64,000 nucleotides of DNA from Candidatus Woykebacteria bacterium. Its GTDB lineage: Bacteria > Patescibacteriota > Microgenomatia > Woykebacterales > RBG-16-39-9b. The first letter of the stretch is position 1, and every line of letters starts with the position of its first letter. The position numbers and the translations under genes were made by a program. The stretch lies in contig JBBDPN010000001.1 in the NCBI GenBank assembly GCA_040876265.1, positions 53,691 through 117,690 of the forward strand, in the 5' to 3' direction. Below, in pieces: positions 13,200-44,576 of this stretch. The notes under the pieces are model-generated. The model ran no database searches, was not told where the DNA came from, and saw only the letters and a program-made list of their open reading frames with translations.

Positions 13200-13640
13200 A
13201 TGAAAATACCACCCAAGTGGCAGCAGGTCCTGATCGTTGGATCGTTCGTAGTCGGCTTGGTATTCATCGGGTTGGGTGTCCTTAGTGTGCCTTCCGACGG
13301 AATCGATCCAAGTGTAGAGGTCGAAGAGTCCGCTGATAGGATCATAGATCTGGACAACGATGACGTGGACGATGAGATTGACAACTGTCCACAGGATGCC
13401 AACGCGGACCAGGACGATTTCGATGGCGACGGTATTGGTTCTGCGTGCGACCCAGACCTGGATAACGATGGGGTGGAGAACGGGGAGGATAACTGTCCAA
13501 ACGTGCCGAACGAGAACCAGGCCCCTGGGCGGTTCGTAGACACGTATGGTAACAGACTCGGAGATGCGTGTGACGACCTGCCGTTCCCGGTTCATGATGG
13601 CCCCACGAGTTTTAACTTGAGGGGCCTTCTTGCTTGTTGA
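13200..13640 (+). CDS. Membrane-anchored thrombospondin type 3 repeat (Ca-binding) protein
   Basis: SD 'AGGAGG' then ATG. TM 'VLIVGSFVVGLVFIGLGVL'. TSP3-like 'DNCPQDANADQDDFDGDGIGSACDPDLDNDGVENGEDNCPNVPNENQ'. Confidence 0.55.
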   Translation: MKIPPKWQQVLIVGSFVVGLVFIGLGVLSVPSDGIDPSVEVEESADRIIDLDNDDVDDEIDNCPQDANADQDDFDGDGIGSACDPDLDNDGVENGEDNCPNVPNENQAPGRFVDTYGNRLGDACDDLPFPVHDGPTSFNLRGLLAC

Positions 13641-14310
13641 ACCTAGAAATTAAGGGCTTGCATGGTCGTTATATAATATCTACAATAAAATTAGTCCCCC
13701 AAGACAAGGTTAGCAAACGTTGTTTTGAGGGAGAAGTGGATCGTCCGTCGCCGGAGCTTTTTGGTTCGCCATCGAGTACGGATGACACAAAGGGTGATCG
13801 ACTTTTTCAGGAGCCTTTCGGCCTGAAGTCTGTTTCGGCAGGCGGGTTCAAACGCTGTTGCTTTCCCAGTGAGGCATAAGTGGAGATCTCCTCACGAGGA
13901 GTCAATTCCGCAGAAAACCTTCTGGGTTGTGATGACATGCTGAGAGTGAACCCCAGGTTGAACGGTTCTGAGCGGTTGGTTCAAGCGTAATAGTGCACCG
14001 GAGGAATCCATGCATATGGCTGAACCCAGGACCTAGTCCTTGCGAGTCCGTGCTCGGTAGGGGCTAGGTCAAAGCCGGATCTTGCGTTAGTTTAGAGATC
14101 ACAATCGAATATAAGGAGAGTGATTGGTCGTAGTGGGGAGCATTGGTGGGTAGTAGTGAGCCCGGGCTCGCCAAACTCTTGCCATGTTGGATTCCCCCTG
14201 TGCTTGCACCGACCCCCACCGAAAGGCGGAAGTGCTCCTAGCGAGTATCTTGTTGCCTTTCGGTCTCTCCCAAGCCAACATCTATTTGATTTTGGTTTAG
14301 GACAAGAAAT

Positions 14311-14349
14311 GACCCCGCTTTTTCATGAAGCAATGGGGTCGTTTTTTTT
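14311..14349 (+). terminator. Intrinsic terminator (GACCCC...GGGGTC stem then T8) ending a ~700-nt unassigned GC-rich non-coding region
   Basis: 'GACCCCGCTTTTTCATGAAGCAATGGGGTCGTTTTTTTT'. Confidence 0.6.
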
Positions 14350-14439
14350 AGCCCACGAACTCCGATTTGATCGGAGGAAGTGGTCGCAACACGCGAGAGT
14401 AATAAAAAATCTTGTATTTCGAAGTACGGAGCGTGCTAT
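14350..14439 (+). repeat. Copy B of the ~90-nt conserved element, upstream of dcd
   Basis: 'TAGCCCACGAACTCCGATTTGATCGGAGGAAGTGGTCGCAACACGCGAGAG...GTACGGAGCGTGCTAT'. The outer stem CACGC/GCGTG covaries with CAGCC/GG(A/C)TG of the other copies. Confidence 0.8.
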
Positions 14440-14544
14440 TGGAGAAAATTTAGGTTAAGGAGTTGTCAAAGAAATCCTGCAATGATATTCTAATTGCGCG
14501 GAGGGCCTGTGCTAATTTAGAGCTTTTACGGGCAGGCAGGTGTA

Positions 14545-15114
14545 ATGATTCTTTCCGACAAAGATATAAGAACCTCTTTAAAGAACGGTAGAATAAAAAT
14601 CACTCCAAAACCAGATCTAGCTGAGCAACTTGGTCCTTGTACCATTGATTTTCATTTGGGAAAAAGTTTCAAAATCTTCAATCACTCCAAATATCCCTTT
14701 ATAGATCCAAGAGATAAGAAAGTCTCAAAAGAGCTTATGAAAGAAATTTCGGTCCCCAAAGACGAGCCGTTTATTATGCGGCCGGGAGAATTTTGCCTGG
14801 CGACCACAGTTGAAAATTTGCAACTTGCTGACGATCTGATCGGTAGGCTCGAGGGGAGAAGTAGTTTGGGTCGGATTGGAATTATTGTCCATTCAACCGC
14901 GGCTCGGTTTGACCCAGGCTGGATAGGTAAACCGGTGATGGAGTTAGGGAATATTGGAGTAATGCCAGTAGCGCTTTATCCTGGCATGAGGATATGTTCT
15001 TTCACTTTCGAACAACTTTCCTCCCCAGCTCTGGTTCCTTATACTCAGAAAAAAGGAGCCAAGTACGCCGGGCAGAAGACACCAGAATCTTCAAAATTAG
15101 CGGAGGAATTTTAA
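14545..15114 (+). CDS. dcd: dCTP deaminase
   Basis: 'MILSDKDIRTSL...IDFHLGKSF...RLEGRSSLGRIGIIVHSTAARFDPGW'. Length 189 aa. Confidence 0.9.
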   Translation: MILSDKDIRTSLKNGRIKITPKPDLAEQLGPCTIDFHLGKSFKIFNHSKYPFIDPRDKKVSKELMKEISVPKDEPFIMRPGEFCLATTVENLQLADDLIGRLEGRSSLGRIGIIVHSTAARFDPGWIGKPVMELGNIGVMPVALYPGMRICSFTFEQLSSPALVPYTQKKGAKYAGQKTPESSKLAEEF

Positions 15115-15117
15115 GCT

Positions 15118-15657
15118 ATGGTACTAGGTGTGGATAAGCTAAAGAAATTGGTCAAAGAAATTAATTTGGTTGAGGCCCTAGGTCCACGCGATCTGGAAAA
15201 TCCAGAAGGGGCTGGTTTTGATCTTCGGCTCGGAGAAGTATTTGAAATTTCCGGCGAGACGGTTCTTGCTATAGAAAAGAGAAAAACGGTTGAGAGTAAA
15301 TCCGTTGCAAAATACAAGGAAGGTAAATCGGAATTTATCACCATCGAACCAGGAGATTTCTATCTTGGTAAGACAATTGAATCTGTGAACCTGCCGGATA
15401 GTTTGGCAGCTACTCTGCACCCTAGGTCTACCACCTTCCGCTCTGGTTTGTGGCTAGGCACGACCCAGATTGCACCCGGTTACAGAGGCCCACTGACGTT
15501 TTCAATAAAAAATTTGGGCCCGTCCAATGTAAAAATTGAACTTGGAGCAAGAGTGTTGCACGTAATGTTTTGGGAAGTAGCCGGTAAAGGTGCAAGTTAC
15601 CGCGGCCAATGGCAAGGCGGTCGGGTAACGAGCAAAGGTGAAGAAAAACAAGTTTAA
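15118..15657 (+). CDS. dCTP deaminase / dUTPase-family paralog (possibly a bifunctional dCTP deaminase-dUTPase or dUTPase)
   Basis: 'AGFDLRLGEVFEI...IEPGDFYLGKTIESVNLP...PRSTTFRSGLWLGTTQIAPGYRGPLTFSIKN'. Lies immediately after dcd. Confidence 0.7.
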   Translation: MVLGVDKLKKLVKEINLVEALGPRDLENPEGAGFDLRLGEVFEISGETVLAIEKRKTVESKSVAKYKEGKSEFITIEPGDFYLGKTIESVNLPDSLAATLHPRSTTFRSGLWLGTTQIAPGYRGPLTFSIKNLGPSNVKIELGARVLHVMFWEVAGKGASYRGQWQGGRVTSKGEEKQV

Positions 15658-17860: not shown

Positions 17861-17985
17861 CCTCCTTACTAGTGGAAAGTTTAACCGTTGGTGGTACTGT
17901 AAGCAAGAGTAGTTTTTAGGTGCTTATAAGGGTGCGGGCAAGGAATTTATTGCTACTGAAGATTTTTTATGTCAAAATCGTTTCG

Positions 17986-18657
17986 ATGAAAAGTAAAAAA
18001 GGTAAACTGATTGTTTTTGAGGGGATAGATGGTTCTGGGAAAACTACGCAGCTAGATCTTTTAACAGAGTATTTACGTTCGAAAGATATTCCGTTTGAAA
18101 CTATAGACTTTCCTCGTTATTGGGATAGCTTTCATGGAAAAACGGTCGCCCGCTACCTAAAAGGCGATTTTGGCGATGTGGATGCTGTCTCTCCTTACCT
18201 AATCTCACTGGCTTATTCCTTGGATCGTGCAACTGCAAAGCGGGAGATGAACGCTTGGTTGCGAGAAGGAAAAATCGTCCTTGCCAACCGCTACGCTACC
18301 AGTAACATGGCTCATCAGGCCGCAAAGCTTCCCGAGAAAAAACGTAAAGAATTCCTCGACTGGCTACAAGAACTTGAATATAGAGTAAACAAAATACCCA
18401 AAGAGGATTTGGTAATTTACCTACATGTTCCTGTTGGTATCGCTAGGCAACTTCTGATTGGAAGGGGTAAACGCGATATTCATGAGAAAAAATTTGAATT
18501 TTTGACGCAGTCGGAAGTGATGTACAAAAAACTATCCCGCCGGTTTAAACATTGGGTAAAAATCGATTGTCTGGATAAAAAATCCGGAATTCTCCTCGCC
18601 AAAGAAGCAGTACACAAAAAAGTTTTACGGTCTCTCAAGAAGCAGAACCTTATTTAA
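17986..18657 (+). CDS. tmk: Thymidylate kinase
   Basis: 'KGKLIVFEGIDGSGKTTQLDLL'. Start at internal ATG 'MKSKKGKL'; the longer ORF in the track has a non-coding-looking extension. Confidence 0.9.
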   Translation: MKSKKGKLIVFEGIDGSGKTTQLDLLTEYLRSKDIPFETIDFPRYWDSFHGKTVARYLKGDFGDVDAVSPYLISLAYSLDRATAKREMNAWLREGKIVLANRYATSNMAHQAAKLPEKKRKEFLDWLQELEYRVNKIPKEDLVIYLHVPVGIARQLLIGRGKRDIHEKKFEFLTQSEVMYKKLSRRFKHWVKIDCLDKKSGILLAKEAVHKKVLRSLKKQNLI

Positions 18658-18761
18658 TCCGTCTCGTCAGGGTATTTTTCCTACTTCTCAATAGCTTTTT
18701 TATATGTAATAGTATAAGTGATGGGCAGATCAAAGAGGGCAATCCGCCATTAAAACGTATT

Positions 18762-18787
18762 GAAATCACGCAACGCGCGTGATTTTT
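18762..18787 (+). terminator. Intrinsic terminator (ATCACGC-aacgc-GCGTGAT then T5) about 105 nt after tmk
   Basis: Seen in the sequence. It overlaps the annotated 5' end of ORF 18760, which argues for the later start at 18835. Confidence 0.55.
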
Positions 18788-18834
18788 GCGTTTTGGGGCC
18801 CTCGTCTTCAAAGCAGGAGGGGAACAAGATCGTC

Positions 18835-19227
18835 ATGGTGCAGTCTGTTGACGTTGCCGTCGGGGCCGTGCAGAGTATCCTAGAGGGCTTTGAACCACCA
18901 CCAGAGTCACCTCTGAAAGGCTTCAACACCGTAGGAGCCAATGGTAATGGGGTTGCTCACACACCGCCGTGGGAGGTCCCAATGCGATCCGACAGCACGG
19001 GACCGACCATCTGTGTTTCTCCAGCATGGGTCGCAGAGCTTAGGAGGTCTCTAAACGTTCGATGCTCAGAGCCGGTCGCAGCCCAGAATACAGGTTCGAG
19101 CTCAAGAATGTTCCTCGAAGTCGAACTCTCCGGCCTCCGAGACTGGGATGTCCGAGTGATGGTTCCAGCGAAACCGATGAAGAAGCGTGAGAGAGCGACG
19201 AGAAAGAGGAAAAAGGATAGGGGGTGA
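18835..19227 (+). CDS. Hypothetical protein with a basic C-terminus (GC-rich island)
   Basis: SD 'AGGAGGGG' then ATG 'MVQSVDVAV'. C-terminus 'KKRERATRKRKKDRG'. No recognised domain. Confidence 0.3.
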   Translation: MVQSVDVAVGAVQSILEGFEPPPESPLKGFNTVGANGNGVAHTPPWEVPMRSDSTGPTICVSPAWVAELRRSLNVRCSEPVAAQNTGSSSRMFLEVELSGLRDWDVRVMVPAKPMKKRERATRKRKKDRG

Positions 19228-19378
19228 TATCTGCCTGGACGCAACCAGGTCGCCGTGTTTCAAGCCGAGTTTAGGTAAAACCGAGCTCAGCAGGGGTCGT
19301 TCTCTTGACATAGAGGATGGCCCTTCTCTCTTTTCTGCTTGCTTTTTTATAGCTAGTTTTGTTACACTACGCCCCGTT

Positions 19379-20137
19379 ATGTTGAAAATCCCAACACTTA
19401 CACAGTTACTTGAAGCCGGTGTCCATTTTGGTCACCGCTCATCTCGTTGGAACCCAAAAATGAAACCGTTCATATTCACTCAGCAAGCAGGTATCCACGT
19501 GATCGATTTGGAAAAAACAGAAAATGCCCTCAAAAAAGCAGCAGAATTTGTTAAGGAATTAGCTGAAAGAGGCGGTAACATCGTTTTTCTGGCAACCAAG
19601 AAACAAACAGCCGAAATCGTAAAGGAACAAGCTCAAAGAGTTGGCTCAATGTATATGACTAAACGCTGGTTGGGTGGTCTGCTTACCAATTTTGACGCGG
19701 TAAAAAAAACTATTGATAAACTGCCAAAGCTAGAAGAGAAGCTGGCTGATAAAGAAAGTGGCCTGACTAAAAAAGAGCAGCTGCTCATCCAAAGGGAGGC
19801 CGACAAGATGACCCGTTCGATCGGCGGAATTCGTAATTTGGCAAAACTTCCCGACGCCCTCTTTGTCATAGATTCCCGTAAGGAAGATAATGCGGTACGC
19901 GAGGCAAACAAAATGGACGTGCCGGTAATTGCTTTGGTGGATACAAATGCCGATCCCACAAAGATCGATTACCCAATCCCGGCTAATGATGACGCTATAA
20001 AAAGCGTTTCTCTACTCGTTTCGACAATCGCCGATGCATTTGAAGACGGGAAAAAATCTTGGCAAAAGAAAGAGGTCATTGCAGAGAAGAAAAGGGTCAA
20101 AGAGGAGGAAAAGGAAGCAGTCGCCCAAGCAGTCTAA
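19379..20137 (+). CDS. rpsB: 30S ribosomal protein S2 with a Lys/Glu-rich C-terminal extension
   Basis: 'MLKIPTLTQLLEAGVHFGHRSSRWNPKMKPFIF'. The upstream part of ORF 19187 is GC-rich non-coding. Confidence 0.9.
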   Translation: MLKIPTLTQLLEAGVHFGHRSSRWNPKMKPFIFTQQAGIHVIDLEKTENALKKAAEFVKELAERGGNIVFLATKKQTAEIVKEQAQRVGSMYMTKRWLGGLLTNFDAVKKTIDKLPKLEEKLADKESGLTKKEQLLIQREADKMTRSIGGIRNLAKLPDALFVIDSRKEDNAVREANKMDVPVIALVDTNADPTKIDYPIPANDDAIKSVSLLVSTIADAFEDGKKSWQKKEVIAEKKRVKEEEKEAVAQAV

Positions 20138-29836: not shown

Positions 29837-32038
29837 TTGTTAAATAGGGGGTTTTTGCGTTGTTGGAACAATGGAGAAACAAGGTTTAACTACAAAAATA
29901 GCCTAACTGTTTTTATCGAAATTCAAAATATGGAGCAACAAGGGTTTTCTCTAAAAATTACAGAAAAGATAAATCCGATTGATTTAGCCAAGAAGTTGGT
30001 TGGATTAGGTTATGAAAAGGTTGGTATTTCAACGCCGGCCAAAGAAGGGCAGTTTTCCGTTCGTGGGGGGCTGCTGGATTTGTGGCTCGAAAGATACAAA
30101 ATGCCAGTAAGACTTGATTTAATAGGCGAACAAGTTGAAAACGTTTATCTATTTAATCCACTTACTCAAGCAAAAATAAAAAATTTAAGCCAGGTCTACA
30201 TAGTACCTTTTGGTGTTACGCCGAAACTAGCGCCAAAATGGACAAAAAAAGTGCAGTTTCCCTCAAGAGGCGGGCAATACGAAAGACTGTTTCTCTCCGA
30301 GGTCCAACCAGGAGACTTGGTCGTCCACATCGATCACGGAGTTGGCAAGTTTTTAGGTGTTGTAGGTGGTAGGTCGGTCGGGATCCGAAACGTTCGCGAT
30401 CAAACGCGACTTCCTCCGGAACGCGCGCCTTCACCCCGACAGAAACGGGGTTCAGGTACGCCCCGAAAGGTCGTGGCTAGTGATCGACTCACTTTTCCGG
30501 ACACCCTCCCGCCTTACCAAGAGGAGCCTCTAGCCCACAAAGTGGTCGCAGAGCGCGAAGCGATCTACAAATTGGATCGACCCGCCGATAAGCAGGTATT
30601 GGCTATCGAATACGCGAAAGGCGGCAAACTTTACGTACCAATTGAGCAGATCGAGCGAGTCACAAAGTATATTGGTGCCGCTGGTTTTAGACCCAGATTG
30701 AACTCACTTGGCAGCGGGAGTTGGGAGAGAGTTAAAGCCAAAGTTGAAGAATCAATAGTAAGAATTGCGCAGAATTTATTAAATCTTTACGCTCGGCGCG
30801 AACTGGTGAAAAGGCCTGCTTACTTAAAAGATACCGCCTGGCAAAAACAAATGGAAGATTCGTTTGAATTTGAAGAAACAAACGACCAGTCGAAGGTAAC
30901 TAGCGAAATAAAAAGGGATCTGGAAGGTACGAAACCAATGGATAGAATTTTGGTGGGAGATGTTGGTTTTGGTAAAACCGAGGTGGCTATCCGTGCCGCT
31001 TTCAAAGTAGTTCAAGAGTCTCACCAAGTGGCTGTTTTGGTACCTACTACACTTTTGGCACAGCAACATTACCATCTTTTTAAGGATCGACTAAAAGAAT
31101 TTCCGGTAGAAATCGAAATTCTTTCTAGATTTAGAAACAAAGAAGAGCAAAACACAACATTAGGTAACCTAGCCTCGGGGAAAGTTGATATTGTCCTAGG
31201 AACACATAGATTGCTTTCTGCTGATGTTGACTTTAAAAATTTAGGCCTGCTTATCATTGATGAGGAACACAGGTTCGGCGTAGTCCACAAAGAAAAATTA
31301 AAAAAAATTCGGGCGAGTGTTGACGTTCTTTCAATGAGTGCGACTCCAATTCCTAGGACATTGCATATGGCCCTTAGCAAACTGCGTAATATCTCTGTGT
31401 TGAAGGAAGCACCGGTAGGTAGAAAACCGGTCCAAACTTTTGTCGGAGAAGATGATCTAGAAAAAGCAAAAATGGCGATCGAGACCGAGATAGCTCGGGG
31501 CGGACAGATCTATTATCTTTATAACAATGTAGCTGGAGTTGCCAAAAAAACGGTTGATATAAATACCCTTGTTCCAAAAGCAAGAGTCGTCTTTGCTCAC
31601 GGTAGGATGGCCGAGCAAGATTTGGAAAAAACAATGGGACAGTTTTATTCTGGCCAAGCAGATATCCTGGTTTGTACAACCATTATCGGTTCTGGTCTCG
31701 ATATGCCTAATGTAAACACAATCCTCATCGAAGACGCTCAAAATTTTGGTTTGGCCGAGCTCCATCAGCTCCGTGGTCGTGTGGGCCGGTCGGACAAGCA
31801 AGCCTACTCTTATCTTTTTTATCCAAAAGGCTATCTACCGGTTGGTAATGTACTCGAAAGATTATTAGCTATATCTGGCTCGACGCAGCTTGGGGCTGGT
31901 TTTGATATAGCCAAGAAAGATTTGAAAATTCGTGGAGCCGGCAATTTGCTGGGGAAGCGGCAGAGTGGTAATATTGCTCTTGTCGGCTACGAGCTATACA
32001 TTCAACTGCTGTCCCAGCAAATTGAAAAGCTAAAATAA
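29837..32038 (+). CDS. mfd: Transcription-repair coupling factor (compact Mfd: CarD/TRCF domain + SF2 helicase), carrying a ~67-aa GC-rich in-frame insertion in the CarD-like domain (nt about 30365..30595); true start may be the internal ATG near 29930
   Basis: 'GDLVVHIDHGVGKFLGV...QVLAIEYAKGGKLYVPIEQ' CarD-like region. 'DVGFGKTEVAIRAA' Walker A. 'LLIIDEEHRFGV' DEEH. 'QLRGRVGRSDKQAYSY'. Confidence 0.85.
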   Translation: MLNRGFLRCWNNGETRFNYKNSLTVFIEIQNMEQQGFSLKITEKINPIDLAKKLVGLGYEKVGISTPAKEGQFSVRGGLLDLWLERYKMPVRLDLIGEQVENVYLFNPLTQAKIKNLSQVYIVPFGVTPKLAPKWTKKVQFPSRGGQYERLFLSEVQPGDLVVHIDHGVGKFLGVVGGRSVGIRNVRDQTRLPPERAPSPRQKRGSGTPRKVVASDRLTFPDTLPPYQEEPLAHKVVAEREAIYKLDRPADKQVLAIEYAKGGKLYVPIEQIERVTKYIGAAGFRPRLNSLGSGSWERVKAKVEESIVRIAQNLLNLYARRELVKRPAYLKDTAWQKQMEDSFEFEETNDQSKVTSEIKRDLEGTKPMDRILVGDVGFGKTEVAIRAAFKVVQESHQVAVLVPTTLLAQQHYHLFKDRLKEFPVEIEILSRFRNKEEQNTTLGNLASGKVDIVLGTHRLLSADVDFKNLGLLIIDEEHRFGVVHKEKLKKIRASVDVLSMSATPIPRTLHMALSKLRNISVLKEAPVGRKPVQTFVGEDDLEKAKMAIETEIARGGQIYYLYNNVAGVAKKTVDINTLVPKARVVFAHGRMAEQDLEKTMGQFYSGQADILVCTTIIGSGLDMPNVNTILIEDAQNFGLAELHQLRGRVGRSDKQAYSYLFYPKGYLPVGNVLERLLAISGSTQLGAGFDIAKKDLKIRGAGNLLGKRQSGNIALVGYELYIQLLSQQIEKLK

Positions 32039-32059
32039 GAAGACAGGAGGTACGGAGAT

Positions 32060-32173
32060 CGTGATTAGGTTGAAAGGTGCTGTAGCTACTTTCTACGCTC
32101 TGGTGGTAGTCATCGCCCTCGCGCTCGCCGCGTCAAGTCGGGGGCTGACCGATCTCATCAACTGGATCTTTTA
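32060..32173 (+). CDS. Candidate 37-aa hydrophobic micro-protein (GTG start after AGGAGGT), GC-rich island
   Basis: 'VIRLKGAVATFYALVVVIALALAASSRGLTDLINWIF'. Below the ORF-track size cutoff. Confidence 0.25.
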
Positions 32174-32217
32174 GGTCACAGGGCGATCATAGGTTTGATT
32201 AGAGCTAGGGAGTGGAG

Positions 32218-32532
32218 ATGAAAATCGCAGGTAGTTGGCTTGGTGTCAATCTGAGGCGCGGGGAGGTAATTGTAGGAGTGCGTGTCCTAGGGCAGGCAAA
32301 TAGAGTAATAAAACCTGCCTTTCGGTACCAACCCCTGCCGTCTTTCATGCACATTCTAGCGAGGCTATGTGATGGCGAAGAGCTGATATACGACCCTAGC
32401 CTCAAGTTAAGTCTAGACATTATCGAGAAGATGTTGTCTAGGTTAAACAAAGATCTGGGAACCGATTTCCAGCTAGTAGCCCGACAGATCAAAAAGAACA
32501 GGAAACCAAGGGTGCTTCTGGTGGGAGGATAG
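32218..32532 (+). CDS. Hypothetical protein (GC-rich island)
   Basis: SD 'GGGAGTGGAG' then ATG 'MKIAGSWLGV'. No recognised domain. Confidence 0.35.
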   Translation: MKIAGSWLGVNLRRGEVIVGVRVLGQANRVIKPAFRYQPLPSFMHILARLCDGEELIYDPSLKLSLDIIEKMLSRLNKDLGTDFQLVARQIKKNRKPRVLLVGG

Positions 32533-32611
32533 AGGCGGTTAATTGTTGACGCCGATAGTAGTAATTGGTGTATCATCTTCGTCCAAACCAGATAGAAGGG
32601 AGGTGAGAGAG

Positions 32612-32941
32612 ATGCCGACTGGGTTGGTTGCACCTACCATCAGGCAGCACATCCAACAGGCTTCTGTGGGTGACAACATCGAAGAGGAGCGCGATCGAGA
32701 GTGGCTCTCTGAGGTGCTCGCTCGGATGCAGTATCCCAATAATTACCAATTTTTCCGCCGCATTGCTGGTCGGAAAGATTCGGAGAGACTTGTCCGGACA
32801 ATCATTCGTGTTTTGCGGGGAACAAAGGATCTGAACTGGGTCTTGCACGAGGCAGAAAAAGTCTTCGGAGCAGGAGTGCCGCCGTTTCAGCAAAAGCTGT
32901 TGAGCATGATCCGAGAAGCCCAGAAAAATCACTCCACTTAG
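32612..32941 (+). CDS. Hypothetical protein (GC-rich island)
   Basis: SD 'GAAGGGAGGTGAGAGAG' then ATG 'MPTGLVAPT'. No recognised domain. Confidence 0.4.
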   Translation: MPTGLVAPTIRQHIQQASVGDNIEEERDREWLSEVLARMQYPNNYQFFRRIAGRKDSERLVRTIIRVLRGTKDLNWVLHEAEKVFGAGVPPFQQKLLSMIREAQKNHST

Positions 32942-32984
32942 CCCTGTTTTTTGCACCTAGTGCGAGGGATGGGGCTACCACTTT

Positions 32985-33374
32985 TTATTGAGGCAAATTT
33001 TCGCTGCGGTGGGGATCTTTTTCCCCTACAAAAACTATCCAGCCATCATCATGTTTTGGCCCGCATACTATTTTGTCCCCAACAACTTTTTCGCAATCGT
33101 TTCGATCGTCATGGTGAGTATTGTGTAGCAACCCTCCGTATTTATTCCAGACATACGTACCTTTTACTTCCACCTCATCGCCGATTTTTATTTCAGGGCG
33201 ATAGGCCCTTTCTAGGTTGTGAGAGACTAAAAGTGTACGACCAGAGGGTACTTTTATAACAAAGCGTTGGTGATGAGTGCCTTTGTGATCATCGCCAAGA
33301 ATTTTAAAAACTTTACCATTCGCCACCAAAGTAACACCCGAAAGCTTATTTTTAAACGCTTCTTCTACAGCCAT
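32985..33374 (-). CDS. Hypothetical protein, possibly DUF3465-like
   Basis: 'KGTHHQRFVIKVPSGRTLLVSHN...KGTYVWNKYGG'. Weak recollection only. Confidence 0.35.
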   Translation of the reverse strand: MAVEEAFKNKLSGVTLVANGKVFKILGDDHKGTHHQRFVIKVPSGRTLLVSHNLERAYRPEIKIGDEVEVKGTYVWNKYGGLLHNTHHDDRNDCEKVVGDKIVCGPKHDDGWIVFVGEKDPHRSENLPQ

Positions 33375-33461
33375 GTTATTAGTATCTTTTATTTGGAATT
33401 TTGGATCAAGTCTGGATTGCAGTTTCTAAGGATTGTAGTAAAATATTTGGGCGATGGTTTT

Positions 33462-33552
33462 TAACCCACGAACTCCGATCAGATCGGAGGAAGTGGTCTC
33501 CGCAGCCGAGAGCACTGAGAAACCTTGTGTTTTGTATGACAGAGGATGCTAT
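33462..33552 (+). repeat. Copy C of the ~90-nt conserved element, immediately upstream of dnaX
   Basis: 'TAACCCACGAACTCCGATCAGATCGGAGGAAGTGGTCTCCGCAGCCGAGAGCACTGAGAAACC...AGAGGATGCTAT'. The inner hairpin loop is CAG instead of TTG while the stem is preserved. Confidence 0.8.
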
Positions 33553-33565
33553 ATCGTAAATAATT

Positions 33566-42732: not shown

Positions 42733-44391
42733 ATGAAAAAATTGCCTGCCGACAATAGACTCTCGCAAGCTTTCAGAAGCCAAGACGGTCTTGCTTTGCT
42801 GCAAGCGATCATTTTGATCAGCATCGTAGCGTCTCTACTACTAATAATAGTGAGCGTGACGCTTTTGGGTTTGAATGTCTCCAAGCAGGGTGTTAGACGA
42901 ACAGCGGCTTTACACATTGCCGAGGCTGGTATAAATTACTATCTTTGGCACCTGGTACACGATCCGGCTGATTACTGTGATGGCAACCCCTGTGTAGGAT
43001 CACCTCCTTATGGCCCCTTCGTCCATGACTTTCATGATAATACTGGTAAAAAAATTGGTAGCTACACTCTTTGGATCGCTCCGCCATCGATCACTGATGG
43101 AAGTAAGGTGGTGATTTGCCACACTCCACCGGCAACAAATGAGACGATATCGGTGGCTCCCTCCGCCGTGCAGGGGCATCTAGATCATGGTGATTTTCTC
43201 GGACCTTGCGAAGGAGGTGGTACTGGAGGTGGTACTGTCGTGGTCGAGTCTCGCGGAGATGTGGAAGACGGTAATGAAAACAGAACCATCGTGGCTGCCC
43301 TGGGTATTCCTTCGTTTGCTCAGTACGCGGTGGTGGCCAATGATACGGTGAACCATATTCGTTTTGGTGAGGACACCGAGATCTTTGGTCCCATCCATAA
43401 CAACGGGGGAGTTCGTTTTGACGGTGTAGCCCATGATTTGGTTACTAGTGCTATGGCCGAGTATAACGATCCTGATCACGACGACATTGATTCACCACAA
43501 CACTCGTACCACCCAGACAATATTCTGGAGCCTGGTGTTCATACCCATGTGCCTCCAGATGAAGACCGTTTTTTGGGTGGAAAGTCGTTTCCGGTTCCAC
43601 CGGTGGATTTTGCTCAAGTGACGGCTGATCTGAACGAGATAGAAACTCAGGCGACAGATGATGGTTACTACTATGGTCCCACCGGTGCTGGCTACCATAT
43701 CGTTTTGGGCAATAATAACTACACCATTTACAGAGTAAATTCTGTAACCGCTAGTTGTAATACCAGCTTGGGTTGGCAGCCCACTTACGGTATATCAAGC
43801 CAAAGTGTGGTAGCTGCCGGAGTCTCCTACCCTACCAACGGCGTGATTTTTGTGGATGACAACCTGTGGGTCGATGGCAAGATAATGGATGTGGCCTTGA
43901 CGATCGCTAGTAGTGAAGAAATCTACATAAACAACGATATCGAATACACGTATCTGGACGGTCGGGACAAACTGGGTCTGATCGCCCAGGAAAATATCTC
44001 GGTGGGTCTGTACAGCGAGGGGTCTTTTAGTGGTAGTAGTGACCAGCGAGAGCTAACTATCCACGCTGCACTGCTGGCTCAAAATGGTCGGGTCGGTCGC
44101 AATTACTACCCTTACCGATACCGTCAGTTCTCCTGGCAATCCTGGTCTTATTGTTTACAATCTAGTGATAATTACTGGCAGAGGAATAAGATTTCAGTTT
44201 ATGGGTCTCTTGCGACCAACCGGCGCTATGGTTTTTCCTGGATCTGCGGTGACACATGGACGATTGGGGATTATTGCGATAGCGGCTATGACGTGCGGGA
44301 AGTGACCTACGATGAAAATTTGAGTGCCAGTCCACCACCTTCTTTCCCAACGATTGGAAATTACGCGATTTTGGATTGGCGCGAAAAATAG
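42733..44391 (+). CDS. PilX-like minor pilin / large pilus-associated protein (552 aa)
   Basis: N-terminal 'SQDGLALLQAIILISIVASLLLIIVSV' resembles the PilX_N signal-anchor. Confidence 0.45.
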   Translation: MKKLPADNRLSQAFRSQDGLALLQAIILISIVASLLLIIVSVTLLGLNVSKQGVRRTAALHIAEAGINYYLWHLVHDPADYCDGNPCVGSPPYGPFVHDFHDNTGKKIGSYTLWIAPPSITDGSKVVICHTPPATNETISVAPSAVQGHLDHGDFLGPCEGGGTGGGTVVVESRGDVEDGNENRTIVAALGIPSFAQYAVVANDTVNHIRFGEDTEIFGPIHNNGGVRFDGVAHDLVTSAMAEYNDPDHDDIDSPQHSYHPDNILEPGVHTHVPPDEDRFLGGKSFPVPPVDFAQVTADLNEIETQATDDGYYYGPTGAGYHIVLGNNNYTIYRVNSVTASCNTSLGWQPTYGISSQSVVAAGVSYPTNGVIFVDDNLWVDGKIMDVALTIASSEEIYINNDIEYTYLDGRDKLGLIAQENISVGLYSEGSFSGSSDQRELTIHAALLAQNGRVGRNYYPYRYRQFSWQSWSYCLQSSDNYWQRNKISVYGSLATNRRYGFSWICGDTWTIGDYCDSGYDVREVTYDENLSASPPPSFPTIGNYAILDWREK

Positions 44392-44518
44392 CAGCCTCCG
44401 TGCTGCGAAATGCAACATTTCTTAGTACTCTCGGCTGCTGTGCTACCGCTAAGCACCTCCGTACTGTGAAACACAAGGTTTATTAGTACTGCCGACTGCT
44501 GCGACCACTAAAGTGGAC
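44388..44518 (-). repeat. Two tandem partial copies (reverse orientation) of the ~90-nt conserved element between the pilin gene and the PilN-like gene
   Basis: The reverse complement reads '...GGTAGCACAGCAGCCGAGAGTACTAAGAAATGTTGCATTTCGCAGCACGGAGGCTGCTAT' and 'GTCCACTTTAGTGGTCGCAGCAGTCGGCAGTACTAATAAACCTTGTGTTTCACAGTACGG'. Confidence 0.7.
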
Positions 44519-44576
44519 TAGAATCCGCTTGCAATAAGTAAGTTAGGTTGCTACGATATAAAGACAAACACCTGCC

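What the first reader, a model, noticed from the sequence alone, without database searches (positions are those of the whole stretch)
30365..30595. GC-rich ~67-codon in-frame insertion inside mfd that contains a hairpin-deleted copy of the ~90-nt element
In the CarD/RNAP-interacting domain of Mfd, the loop between '...HGVGKFLGV' and 'QVLAIEYAKGGKLYVP' is about 10 aa in canonical Mfd. Here it is about 77 aa: 'VGGRSVGIRNVRDQTRLPPERAPSPRQKRGSGTPRKVVASDRLTFPDTLPPYQEEPLAHKVVAEREAIYKLDRPADK'. The corresponding DNA is conspicuously GC-rich against an AT-rich gene. At 30531-30560 it reads TAGCCCACAAAGTGGTCGCAGAGCGCGAAG, which is the ~90-nt element with its inner hairpin deleted (compare TAGCCCACGAA[hairpin]GAAGTGGTCGCAACACGCGAGAG in copy B). 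It is translated in frame as ...PLAHKVVAEREAIY.... So an element related to the intergenic repeat has inserted into an essential-type gene without breaking the reading frame. This links the repeat family to the GC-rich islands and suggests a mobile element that tolerates, or is selected for, in-frame insertion.
Basis: partly seen in the sequence, partly recalled or inferred. Interest (0 to 1): 0.8.

Follow-up and report, generated by a model that had tools for sequence, protein, structure and literature searches.

The report
Nested palindromic DNA inserts inside mfd
A DNA-repair gene (mfd) of an uncultured Woykebacteria (candidate phyla radiation, CPR) bacterium carries, in frame, an old palindromic DNA cassette plus a newer 44-base copy of a small repeat otherwise found between genes, which shows that hairpin-forming, possibly selfish DNA can settle in and be swapped within a tolerant surface loop of a conserved protein.

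Summary

**What is there**
- mfd (29930-32038, +) has 67-68 extra codons (30365-30595) at the tip of the beta2-beta3 hairpin of its RNA-polymerase-interacting domain.
- The segment is GC-rich at all codon positions, and AlphaFold predicts it to be disordered.

**It is composite**
1. A ~150-nt imperfect palindrome (30365-30513).
   - It is homologous at the nucleotide level to inserts at the same codon in relatives.
   - Its conservation is flat across codon positions (0.81/0.83/0.81, against 0.73/0.86/0.39 in the flanks).
   - Among the more divergent inserts of this kind in four relatives, the stems are kept by compensatory changes.
   - At least three unrelated cassette types occupy this one site. 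They are present, absent or replaced independently of the host-gene tree, with sharp boundaries.
2. A 44-nt element (30529-30572).
   - It is a complete copy of a "mini" subfamily of a dispersed two-hairpin repeat, not a "hairpin-deleted" derivative.
   - A covariance model built only from intergenic copies finds it at E~6e-7.

**The same repeat family in other genes**
- It is in frame in cysS.
- It is in frame in a PcrA/UvrD-like helicase.
- It forms the C-terminal tail of a DUF3465 gene in related contigs.

The closest analogues are Rickettsia palindromic elements and REP/MITE-type repeats. How the elements move is unknown.

The parts
29930..32038 (+). mfd gene (702 aa, short CPR form: UvrB_inter, RID, DEAD and Helicase_C domains; no TRCF domain)
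   Evidence: ORF. Pfam. 100% identical to P0001, Candidatus Woykebacteria MAG. AlphaFold2 mean pLDDT 80.
30365..30595 (+). In-frame GC-rich insert in the beta2-beta3 hairpin loop of the RID (about residues 146-222)
   Evidence: 68 extra residues relative to Thermus thermophilus Mfd 347/349. GC 0.59 against 0.42. pLDDT below 50 for residues 148-219.
30371..30514 (+). Older palindromic cassette ('type A'): a long imperfect hairpin
   Evidence: RNA fold -60.3 kcal/mol, z=-2.7. Nucleotide-homologous to the L081 and L083 inserts, 79% and 72% identity. Consensus structure of 45 pairs, 8 with compensatory changes. Flat codon-position conservation.
30434..30450 (+). Apical hairpin CCCCG-ACAGAAA-CGGGG of the cassette. 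It differs from the relatives, which have GGCT-AAGA-AGCC in L081.
30514..30586 (+). Window-specific 73-nt addition, bounded by two CCCGCC hexamers (30508-30513 and 30581-30586). With a 1-nt deletion upstream the net change is +72 nt.
   Evidence: DNA alignment with L081 and L083. The gap of 21-22 aa is present only in the window.
30529..30572 (+). Complete 'mini' copy of the dispersed two-hairpin repeat. Hairpin 1 is CCAC(30535-38)/GTGG(30542-45). The mini-P1 hairpin is AGAGCGC(30550-56)-GAA-GCGATCT(30560-66). The tail is ACAAAT. It is translated as (P)LAHKVVAEREAIYK.
   Evidence: Covariance model R1: 36.6 bits, E=6e-7. The core is identical to L136, L127 and L153 and differs by one base in L119. 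blastn.
8529..8624 (+). Intergenic copy A of the repeat (long hairpin-1 form), 7 nt upstream of a topA-like gene
   Evidence: 70.4 bits.
14347..14443 (+). Intergenic copy B (long hairpin-1 form)
   Evidence: 69.7 bits.
33460..33556 (+). Intergenic copy C (long hairpin-1 form), 9 nt upstream of dnaX
   Evidence: 62 bits.
44390..44522 (-). Intergenic copy D: short hairpin-1 form followed by a second hairpin-2 unit, antisense to both flanking genes
   Evidence: 73.3 and 38.6 bits.

Best explanation
The GC-rich segment is two nested pieces of hairpin-forming DNA. They entered, or were exchanged into, one permissive position of mfd at the DNA level. They persist because they are in frame, free of stop codons, and translated as a disordered loop at the tip of the beta2-beta3 hairpin of the Tudor-like RNA-polymerase-interacting domain.

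Piece 1 (30365-30513) is a ~150-nt imperfect palindrome. It is one of at least three unrelated cassette types found at exactly this codon in a clade of Woykebacteria-like bacteria. These cassettes are gained, lost or replaced independently of the host gene. They evolve as nucleic acid, with equal conservation at all codon positions and stems kept by compensatory changes, not as protein.

Piece 2 (30529-30572) is a younger, complete copy of the 44-nt 'mini' subfamily of a dispersed two-hairpin repeat family: TAGYCCAC-loop-GTGGTCGCAG followed by a closing hairpin. That family sits mostly between genes, in either orientation, and is occasionally in frame in other genes.

Shown: homology, nesting, in-frame status, hairpin structure and covariation, loop position, and incongruence of cassette type with the host tree.

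Inferred: that the pieces arrived by insertion or gene conversion, that the mRNA is translated straight through, and that the protein stays functional. The enzyme or process that moves them is unknown.
For: Position and tolerance:
- The flanks align to Thermus thermophilus Mfd 319-347 and 349-417.
- AlphaFold2 gives confident flanking strands 137-145 and 223-227, with pLDDT below 50 for 148-219.
- The main RNA-polymerase-binding strand motif KLYVP is intact.

Piece 1:
- It is nucleotide-homologous to the L081 and L083 inserts.
- Inserts of relatives fold as long hairpins, with z down to -8.2.
- Consensus hairpins show 8/45 and 19/39 pairs with compensatory changes. 93% of cells are paired against 35-50% for slid controls.
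- Codon-position identity is 0.81/0.83/0.81 in the insert against 0.73/0.86/0.39 in the flanks.
- There is a 1-nt frame difference between the window and L081 inside the insert.
- The insert peptide has no homologue among 1.84 billion representative proteins.
- Insert presence is patchy on the Mfd tree.
- The closest host pairs carry unrelated cassettes while flank identity stays high up to the boundary: L081/L211 (third-position identity 0.61) and L086/L088 show insert identity of 0.35 against flank-window identity of 0.75-0.89.

Piece 2:
- The covariance model hit and the identical mini copies elsewhere.
- Strong covariation in the family: 15/19 pairs, 92% paired.
- Copies at non-orthologous sites and in mixed orientation.
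- In-frame copies in cysS (exactly 69 nt, empty sites in three orthologues) and in a PcrA-like helicase.
Against: - No copy of piece 1, or of any other old cassette type, was found outside mfd in about 0.95 Mb of related DNA. It is therefore not a dispersed repeat like Rickettsia palindromic elements.
- Its conservation above the level of synonymous sites at an orthologous site is not what a dead selfish insertion should show. It points either to a host-level function or to recent lateral spread.
- No terminal inverted repeats, no target-site duplication and no transposase were identified.
- The 44-nt element is not a multiple of three. The 73-nt addition and the compensating 1-nt deletion are read from an alignment that is uncertain at its 3' end.
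- The nested element is seen in one MAG only (P0001 has one member on one contig), and no reads could be mapped.
- Translation through the insert is not demonstrated.
Confidence: 0.68

Rival explanations
1. The older palindrome is a host-selected, cis-acting structured RNA or DNA element embedded in the mfd reading frame. It might serve, for example, as a regulatory mRNA structure, a processing site or a protein-binding hairpin. The peptide it encodes would then be a by-product.
For: - Conservation is flat across codon positions and well above the saturated synonymous sites of the flanks.
- Many compensatory changes keep a multi-stem hairpin among divergent orthologues.
- The peptide is not conserved.
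Against: - Most close relatives lack any insert, and others carry unrelated sequences at the same site. No single structure is required for mfd.
- There is no Rfam match even at E<=10.
- There is no promoter-like or terminator-like site.
- Arms of palindromes can co-evolve through template-switch ('quasipalindrome correction') mutation without selection (established knowledge, not tested here).
Confidence: 0.15
2. The insert is an ordinary lineage-specific expansion of a surface loop, selected at the protein level as an intrinsically disordered linker rich in Pro, Arg, Gly, Ala and Ser. The GC-richness follows from the amino-acid composition, and the match to the repeat is incidental.
For: - The loop varies in length across Mfd proteins.
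- The segment is predicted to be disordered.
- GC at first and second codon positions is raised, as expected for Pro/Arg/Gly/Ala codons.
Against: - GC at third positions is also raised.
- Third positions are as conserved as first and second positions, while amino-acid identity is lower than in the flanks.
- There is a frame difference between orthologues.
- The DNA is palindromic with covariation.
- The 44-nt piece is nearly identical to intergenic repeats in unrelated contigs.
- Unrelated cassettes sit in sister genes.
Confidence: 0.07
3. The segment, or at least the nested 44-nt element, is an assembly artefact: a chimeric join or a collapsed repeat in a metagenome-assembled genome.
For: - The exact protein is on record from one contig only.
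- Repeats are classic sites of misassembly.
- Reads could not be mapped.
Against: - Homologous inserts at the same codon occur in independent assemblies from JGI, ENA, NCBI and Logan.
- The reading frame is preserved through 231 nt.
- The element is short (44 nt), below typical read length, and is flanked by unique sequence.
Confidence: 0.04
4. The insert is an intervening sequence that is removed after transcription or translation: a mini-intein, a group I or II intron, or a translational bypass.
For: - It occupies a single conserved site.
- Its distribution is patchy and homing-like.
Against: - At 68 aa it is too short for an intein, and there is no Cys/Ser/Thr at the N-terminal junction and no His-Asn plus nucleophile at the C-terminal junction (sequence).
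- There are no intron or ribozyme hits.
- Lengths range from 45 to 80 codons among homologues, and all are in frame and open.
Confidence: 0.02

Closest known systems
Rickettsia palindromic elements (RPEs; Ogata et al. 2000, as reviewed in PMC10969869)
   Same: Both are short palindromic DNA inserted in frame in unrelated housekeeping genes of a small genome. Both are translated as extra peptide segments compatible with the protein fold, and both families are also found in non-coding DNA (for the literature; here).
   Different: - There is no sequence relationship, and the phylum is different (Patescibacteria/CPR).
- The dispersed repeat here is smaller (44-95 nt) and has a two-hairpin architecture with a variable apex.
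- The larger cassette in mfd is not dispersed at all. It is confined to one codon position and is exchanged between lineages.
REP/BIME-type repeats, including GTAG-tagged REPs mobilised by RAYT transposases (PMC3733652), and promoter-bearing MITEs such as Correia (PMC10969869)
   Same: Both are small, structured, multi-copy repeats, mostly intergenic and found in both orientations. The head is [T/G/C]TAG followed by a short GC-rich palindrome. Some copies end in a TGnTATAAT-like box just upstream of genes.
   Different: - The head is TTAG more often than GTAG.
- No RAYT or other transposase was identified.
- There are no terminal inverted repeats or target-site duplications.
- A second, larger hairpin with strong covariation is part of the unit.
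Optional G+C-rich palindromic clusters of yeast mitochondrial DNA, including in-frame clusters in var1 (own knowledge, not checked in the library)
   Same: Both are GC-rich hairpin-forming modules in an AT-richer genome, optional between strains, and tolerated in frame within a protein-coding gene.
   Different: - Those are in an organelle, not a bacterium, and the cluster families are unrelated.
- Preferential gene conversion has been shown genetically there. Here exchange is only inferred, from incongruence with the host tree.
Inteins and homing introns
   Same: Both occupy a single conserved site in a conserved gene, with a patchy distribution that does not follow the host tree.
   Different: There is no splicing domain, ribozyme or endonuclease, and the segment is far too short. 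It is most simply read as being translated and retained.

Membership tests
Rickettsia palindromic element-like in-frame repeat (kind, not the Rickettsia families themselves) | Palindromic DNA able to form a long hairpin | tested here: met
   Cassette fold -60.3 kcal/mol, z=-2.7. Relatives reach z=-8.2. The element has two hairpins with covariation.
Rickettsia palindromic element-like in-frame repeat (kind, not the Rickettsia families themselves) | In-frame, stop-free insertion in a functional gene, at a surface position | tested here: met
   ORF intact. The insert sits in a loop between confident beta strands and has low pLDDT. Alignment to solved Mfd structures.
Rickettsia palindromic element-like in-frame repeat (kind, not the Rickettsia families themselves) | Multi-copy family dispersed over unrelated genes and intergenic DNA | tested here: inconclusive
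   Met for the 44-nt element family: four other loci in the window, 35 model hits over all loci, and genic copies in cysS and a PcrA-like gene. Not met for the ~150-nt cassette: no copy outside mfd in about 0.95 Mb.
Rickettsia palindromic element-like in-frame repeat (kind, not the Rickettsia families themselves) | Conserved encoded peptide shared by copies | tested here: not met
   No protein homologues of the insert peptide. Genic copies are read on either strand.
REP (GTAG-tagged) / RAYT system | 20-40 nt imperfect palindrome with a conserved GTAG (or CGTC) head | tested here: inconclusive
   Hairpin 1 is a short palindrome preceded by an invariant TAG. The base before it is mostly T and is G in about a quarter of roughly 32 copies.
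REP (GTAG-tagged) / RAYT system | A cognate RAYT (Y1 transposase) gene in the genome | not tested
   The genome beyond the 64-kb window is not available, and the window ORFs were not scanned for transposases.
MITE | Terminal inverted repeats and a target-site duplication | tested here: not met
   The cysS insertion is exactly 69 nt with only 1 nt of junction microhomology. Flanks of the mini copies share nothing. The hairpins are internal, not terminal repeats.
Intein | Nucleophile at the N-terminal junction, His-Asn plus nucleophile at the C-terminal junction, and at least ~130 aa of Hint fold | tested here: not met
   The peptide VGGRS...PADK is 68 aa and has none of these. Pfam shows no Hint or intein domain.
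Group I/II intron or other Rfam RNA family | Match to a curated covariance model | tested here: not met
   No hit at gathering thresholds in the window. Only noise at E<=10 for 30300-30660 and 44370-44570.
Transcription-repair coupling factor Mfd (host gene) | RID (CarD_TRCF_RID) plus superfamily-2 translocase motifs | tested here: met
   Pfam hits to UvrB_inter, CarD_TRCF_RID, DEAD and Helicase_C. PDB Mfd hits. The TRCF C-terminal domain (PF03461) is absent in this clade.

The most novel reading that the evidence does not exclude
One codon position in the Mfd RNA-polymerase-interacting domain is a dedicated landing or exchange site for non-autonomous palindromic cassettes. Under this reading the cassettes spread between Woykebacteria lineages with sharp boundaries. 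That would be homing-like behaviour without any encoded endonuclease, comparable to the optional GC clusters of yeast mitochondrial var1. Alternatively, the cassettes are host-selected structured RNAs embedded in a coding sequence. Either way the nucleic-acid structure, not the peptide, would be what is maintained.
Probability: 0.25. Interest if true: 0.8.

Novelty: new member of a known kind. Interest (0 to 1): 0.6.

Why it matters
**In-frame palindromic DNA beyond Rickettsia.** In-frame colonisation of conserved genes by small hairpin-forming repeats is best known from Rickettsia. This finding shows it also occurs in the reduced genomes of candidate phyla radiation bacteria.

**A new repeat family.** The two-hairpin repeat is not in Rfam and was not found in the literature searched. 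Its covariation is strong and it can now be modelled (model R1), so a census across Patescibacteria is possible.

**Annotation.** Odd, GC-rich, low-complexity insertions in CPR proteins are usually read as protein features. Some of them may be DNA elements.

**An open question.** One loop of Mfd, next to the RNA-polymerase beta1 contact, holds interchangeable cassettes that are conserved as nucleic acid. This gives a concrete, testable case for asking whether embedded palindromes are purely selfish, are kept by mutational bias, or are used by the host.

Tried and rejected
- **Rfam.** The whole window at gathering thresholds gave nothing, and permissive scans of the insert and of copy D gave only noise.
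- **tRNA/tmRNA.** None found.
- **SRP RNA upstream of dnaX.** I considered this because of the dnaX-ybaB-recR synteny. I rejected it because there are several copies, no conserved SRP domain IV motif is visible in the copies (by eye; no SRP model match), and the orientation is reversed in L081.
- **Dedicated promoter or 5'-UTR element.** Some copies end in TGCTATAAT just upstream of start codons. The orientation relative to neighbouring genes is mixed: 10 copies face a gene start and 16 face a gene end by crude gene calling. The tail is only partly like a -10 box.
- **Promoter or terminator inside the insert.** None found.
- **Protein-level homology of the insert.** The word-based search gave 0 hits and the exhaustive phmmer search gave 0 hits.
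- **Genome-contig scan for mfd.** It was swamped by distant Mfd proteins, and only two CPR loci came back.
- **Relationship between the 'type 2' cassette (L088/L211) and the QTR-type cassettes, on either strand.** No significant similarity.
- **Search for other copies of the old cassettes.** None in 240 kb of syntenic loci or 705 kb of metagenomic loci.
- **Two further 'genic' model hits (L130, L115).** These proved to be artefacts of crude ORF calling.
- **RNA versus DNA pairing from G-U counts.** Too few cases to decide.
- **attC-like, intein and intron readings.** Rejected on sequence features.
Full report
**1. What is in the sequence**

The + strand ORF 29837/29930-32038 encodes a short-form Mfd with UvrB_inter, CarD_TRCF_RID, DEAD and Helicase_C domains. 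From the ATG at 29930 it is 100% identical to a 702-aa protein of a Candidatus Woykebacteria MAG.

- Pfam splits the RID match into two stretches.
- phmmer against PDB aligns the flanks to Thermus thermophilus Mfd residues 319-347 and 349-417, so about 68 residues are extra at that point.
- GC is 0.59 in the insert against 0.42 in the rest of the gene. It is raised at all three codon positions, with third positions at 0.53-0.55 against 0.38.

**2. Where it sits in the protein**

An AlphaFold2 model built from 69 homologues has mean pLDDT 80 and pTM 0.72. It has confident strands at 137-145 and 223-227 and pLDDT below 50 for residues 148-219. The insert is therefore a disordered excursion from the tip of the beta2-beta3 hairpin of the Tudor-like RID.

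In the Thermus RID/beta1 complex, this hairpin arches over the RNA polymerase beta1 domain. R341 (E. coli L499) on beta2 and Y350 on beta3 make contacts, while the main interface is beta-strand 4 with its aliphatic-aromatic-aliphatic-Pro motif (PMC3001067). That motif (KLYVP) is intact here. The insert lies between the equivalents of R341 and Y350, so it projects next to the polymerase contact but does not interrupt it.

**3. The repeat family**

Related contigs carry copies at non-orthologous places:
- upstream of mfd in L083;
- reversed between DUF3465 and dnaX in L081;
- next to cysS, recR, yqeY and HIT genes in L087, L088 and L090.

The unit has four parts:
- a [T/G/C]TAG head;
- hairpin 1, CCAC-loop-GTGG, followed by TCGCAG;
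- hairpin 2, with an outer stem AGCAGCC/GGCTGCT, an internal loop GAGA/GGA, an inner stem GTAC/GTAC and a variable apex;
- a CTAT(A) tail.

RNAalifold on 10 intergenic copies gives 19 pairs, 9 with compensatory changes. A metagenome pattern scan returned at least 120 stretches, and the model confirmed 22 copies among them. On those 22 copies:
- 92% of cells pair, against 29-48% when partners are slid;
- 15 of 19 pairs show changes on both sides.

There is no Rfam family for it. Orientation relative to neighbouring genes is mixed. It therefore behaves as a dispersed structured repeat rather than a dedicated promoter or leader, although some copies end in a TGCTATAAT-like box a few bases before a start codon.

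**4. The piece inside mfd is a complete family member**

A covariance model built only from intergenic copies (R1) hits 30529-30572 with 36.6 bits, E=6e-7 in 240 kb. The aligned parts are hairpin 1, the linker, a closing hairpin AGAGCGC-GAA-GCGATCT and the tail ACAAAT.

Five metagenomic contigs carry the same 44-nt 'mini' form in intergenic DNA. Three of them (L136, L127, L153) have the identical core GTGGTCGCAGAGCGCGAAGCGATCTA. blastn gives 88-95% identity over 37-47 nt to the four closest of these copies. Their flanks share nothing, which sets the element's limits.

The short hairpin 1 is the norm for the family. The long inner hairpin (CTCCGAT-NNN-ATCGGAG) is a local elaboration of three window copies, and L127 has a different nested hairpin at the same place. 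The mfd copy was not produced by deleting a hairpin.

**5. Other in-frame copies**

- **cysS (L090).** It carries exactly 69 extra nucleotides (23 codons, VLAVESGAGRENTEKLKVSKYGS) that are absent from cysS of the window, L087 and L088. The extra DNA is a full-length element: 38.7 bits, E=2e-7, with model positions 1-78 aligned. The junctions share only one base, so there is no target-site duplication.
- **PcrA/UvrD-like helicase (L142 and L137).** Both carry a copy on the opposite strand, in frame, about 25-30 residues beyond what Geobacillus PcrA has at that point.
- **DUF3465 (L085).** A copy supplies the C-terminal tail and stop codon of the gene.

Two further apparent genic hits were artefacts of crude ORF calling.

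**6. Most of the insert is something else**

DNA alignment with the syntenic relatives L081 (P0002) and L083 (P0015) shows that 30365-30513 is homologous to their inserts at 79% and 72% identity.

The next 73 nt (30514-30586, between two CCCGCC hexamers) are specific to the window and contain the 44-nt element. With a 1-nt deletion a few codons upstream, the net change is +72 nt. This detail depends on an alignment that is uncertain at its 3' end.

The shared part folds as a long imperfect hairpin (-60.3 kcal/mol, z=-2.7). Inserts of relatives do the same, with z down to -6.6 and -8.2.

Consensus structures:
- 45 pairs, 8 compensatory, for the three close sequences;
- 39 pairs, 19 compensatory, for four more divergent ones (L084-L087). 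Here 93% of cells pair against 35-50% for slid controls, and 0 of 500 shuffles reach the observed values.

**7. It evolves as nucleic acid, not as protein**

| Comparison (window vs L081) | Codon position 1 | Position 2 | Position 3 |
|---|---|---|---|
| Flanking mfd codons | 0.73 | 0.86 | 0.39 |
| Shared-frame part of the insert | 0.81 | 0.83 | 0.81 |

The flank pattern is that of ordinary coding sequence with saturated synonymous sites. The insert is flat, and the other pairs give similar figures. Amino-acid identity is lower in the insert than in the flanks. The peptide has no homologue among 1.84 billion representative proteins or in the word-indexed search.

**8. Cassette behaviour at one site**

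In an alignment of about 100 CPR Mfd proteins, some 20 carry 26-81 residues at exactly this loop position, 17 of them with 49-81 residues. The rest have 5-16. On a neighbour-joining tree the carriers are interleaved with non-carriers.

At least three unrelated sequence types occur:
- the QTRLPP type, to which the window belongs, with a closer subgroup (window, L081, L083) and a more distant one (L084-L087);
- an ...APRSFSEAG type (L088, L211);
- others, such as P0007 and P0050.

Cassette type does not follow the host gene:

| Host pair | Flank identity by codon position | Insert nt identity | Identity in the two 25-codon windows next to the insert |
|---|---|---|---|
| L081 / L211 (the closest pair) | 0.87/0.93/0.61 | 0.35 (unrelated) | 0.75 and 0.89 |
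| L086 / L088 | 0.79/0.87/0.49 | 0.35 (unrelated) | 0.85 and 0.76 |

The L211 and L088 cassettes are about 0.67 identical to each other, although their hosts are more distant, with third-position identity of 0.45. L081-type cassettes are shared in the same way with the more distant L083 and the window.

None of these older cassettes has a copy elsewhere in about 0.95 Mb of related DNA. They are therefore locus-specific optional modules, not dispersed repeats.

**9. Interpretation**

The best-supported reading is DNA-level insertion or exchange of hairpin-forming modules at a structurally permissive loop. Selection on mfd acts as a filter that lets through only in-frame, stop-free versions.

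The younger module is a member of a REP/MITE-like dispersed family. The closest precedent for its in-frame genic copies is the Rickettsia palindromic elements (PMC10969869).

The older module resembles those elements in being palindromic, in frame and on the protein surface. It fails the 'dispersed family' and 'conserved peptide' criteria. Its conservation above synonymous sites, together with its incongruent distribution, is not explained by a dead selfish insertion. Three readings remain open:
- a host-selected RNA or DNA structure;
- lateral exchange, by gene conversion through the strongly conserved flanks or by site-specific re-insertion;
- concerted evolution of the palindrome arms by template switching, which explains the pairing but not the slow divergence.

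I could not separate these with the tools at hand.

**10. Limits**

- No read mapping was possible.
- The nested element is known from one MAG only.
- The tree is neighbour-joining on a star-like radiation with 64-78% amino-acid identity.
- Gene calling for the orientation statistics was crude.
- The E-values of the home-made model are rough.
- No transposase search was done.
- Translation through the insert and retention of Mfd function are inferred from the intact frame and from conserved motifs only.

Noticed in passing
window 8529-8624, 14347-14443, 33460-33556 (+), 44390-44522 (-); L083 4515-4640; L081 13340-13476 (-): A structured two-hairpin intergenic repeat family that is absent from Rfam and was not found in the literature searched. 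Covariation is strong: 15/19 pairs change on both sides in 22 independent copies. Some copies carry a second 'mini' hairpin-2 unit in tandem.
   Followed up: yes
window 8542-8558, 14360-14376, 33473-33489; L127 2825-2930: Hairpin 1 of the repeat carries a nested extra hairpin in the three long window copies (CTCCGAT-NNN-ATCGGAG). L127 has a different nested hairpin at the same place (GTCAAGTTTAACTTGGC). The loop of hairpin 1 seems to be a hot spot for palindromic growth.
   Followed up: partly
L090 18397-18473 (cysS 17933-19408): A full-length repeat copy, exactly 69 nt, is inserted in frame in cysS. The insertion is absent from cysS of the window, L087 and L088. There is no target-site duplication.
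   Followed up: yes
L142 10481-10557 (-), L137 599-675 (+): A repeat copy lies in frame on the opposite strand inside a PcrA/UvrD-like helicase gene, at the same position in two contigs. It is translated as ...YSRALRPLRGL....
   Followed up: partly
L085 12595-12671 (-): A repeat copy overlaps the 3' end of the DUF3465 gene and supplies its last residues and stop codon.
   Followed up: partly
L081 ~13700-13790 (dnaX 13525-15270): A different in-frame palindromic insertion (GGACCACAGACCACGGACCAC...GTGGTC...GTGGACCGTGGAC) sits in the N-terminal region of dnaX and is absent from the window's dnaX. L086 dnaX also has an extra 16 aa elsewhere.
   Followed up: no
window 29930-32038 and homologues P0002-P0104: Mfd of this CPR clade is only about 620-740 aa and lacks the Pfam TRCF domain (PF03461) that the 1100-1200-aa Mfd proteins have. 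The autoinhibitory C-terminal module and most of the N-terminal UvrB-like region appear to be missing.
   Followed up: no
window 32985-33374 (-): The DUF3465 gene of the window has a 14-aa insertion (within ...DDRNDCEKVVGDKI...) relative to all six syntenic relatives.
   Followed up: no
window 32050-33000: A GC-richer stretch (0.50-0.58) lies between mfd and DUF3465, with overlapping ORFs on both strands and no clear gene. Relatives have one or two small hypothetical genes here.
   Followed up: no
L087 8762-8986 and 8996-10837: mfd is called as two ORFs in this contig, with the UvrB_inter part separate. This may be a frameshift, a sequencing error or a pseudogene.
   Followed up: no
P0023, P0007: P0023's insert looks composite. 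A piece shared with P0007 (..QSVSGLTEIPSS..) is followed by the APRSLSEAG-type cassette. This suggests that nesting or concatenation of cassettes at this site is recurrent.
   Followed up: no
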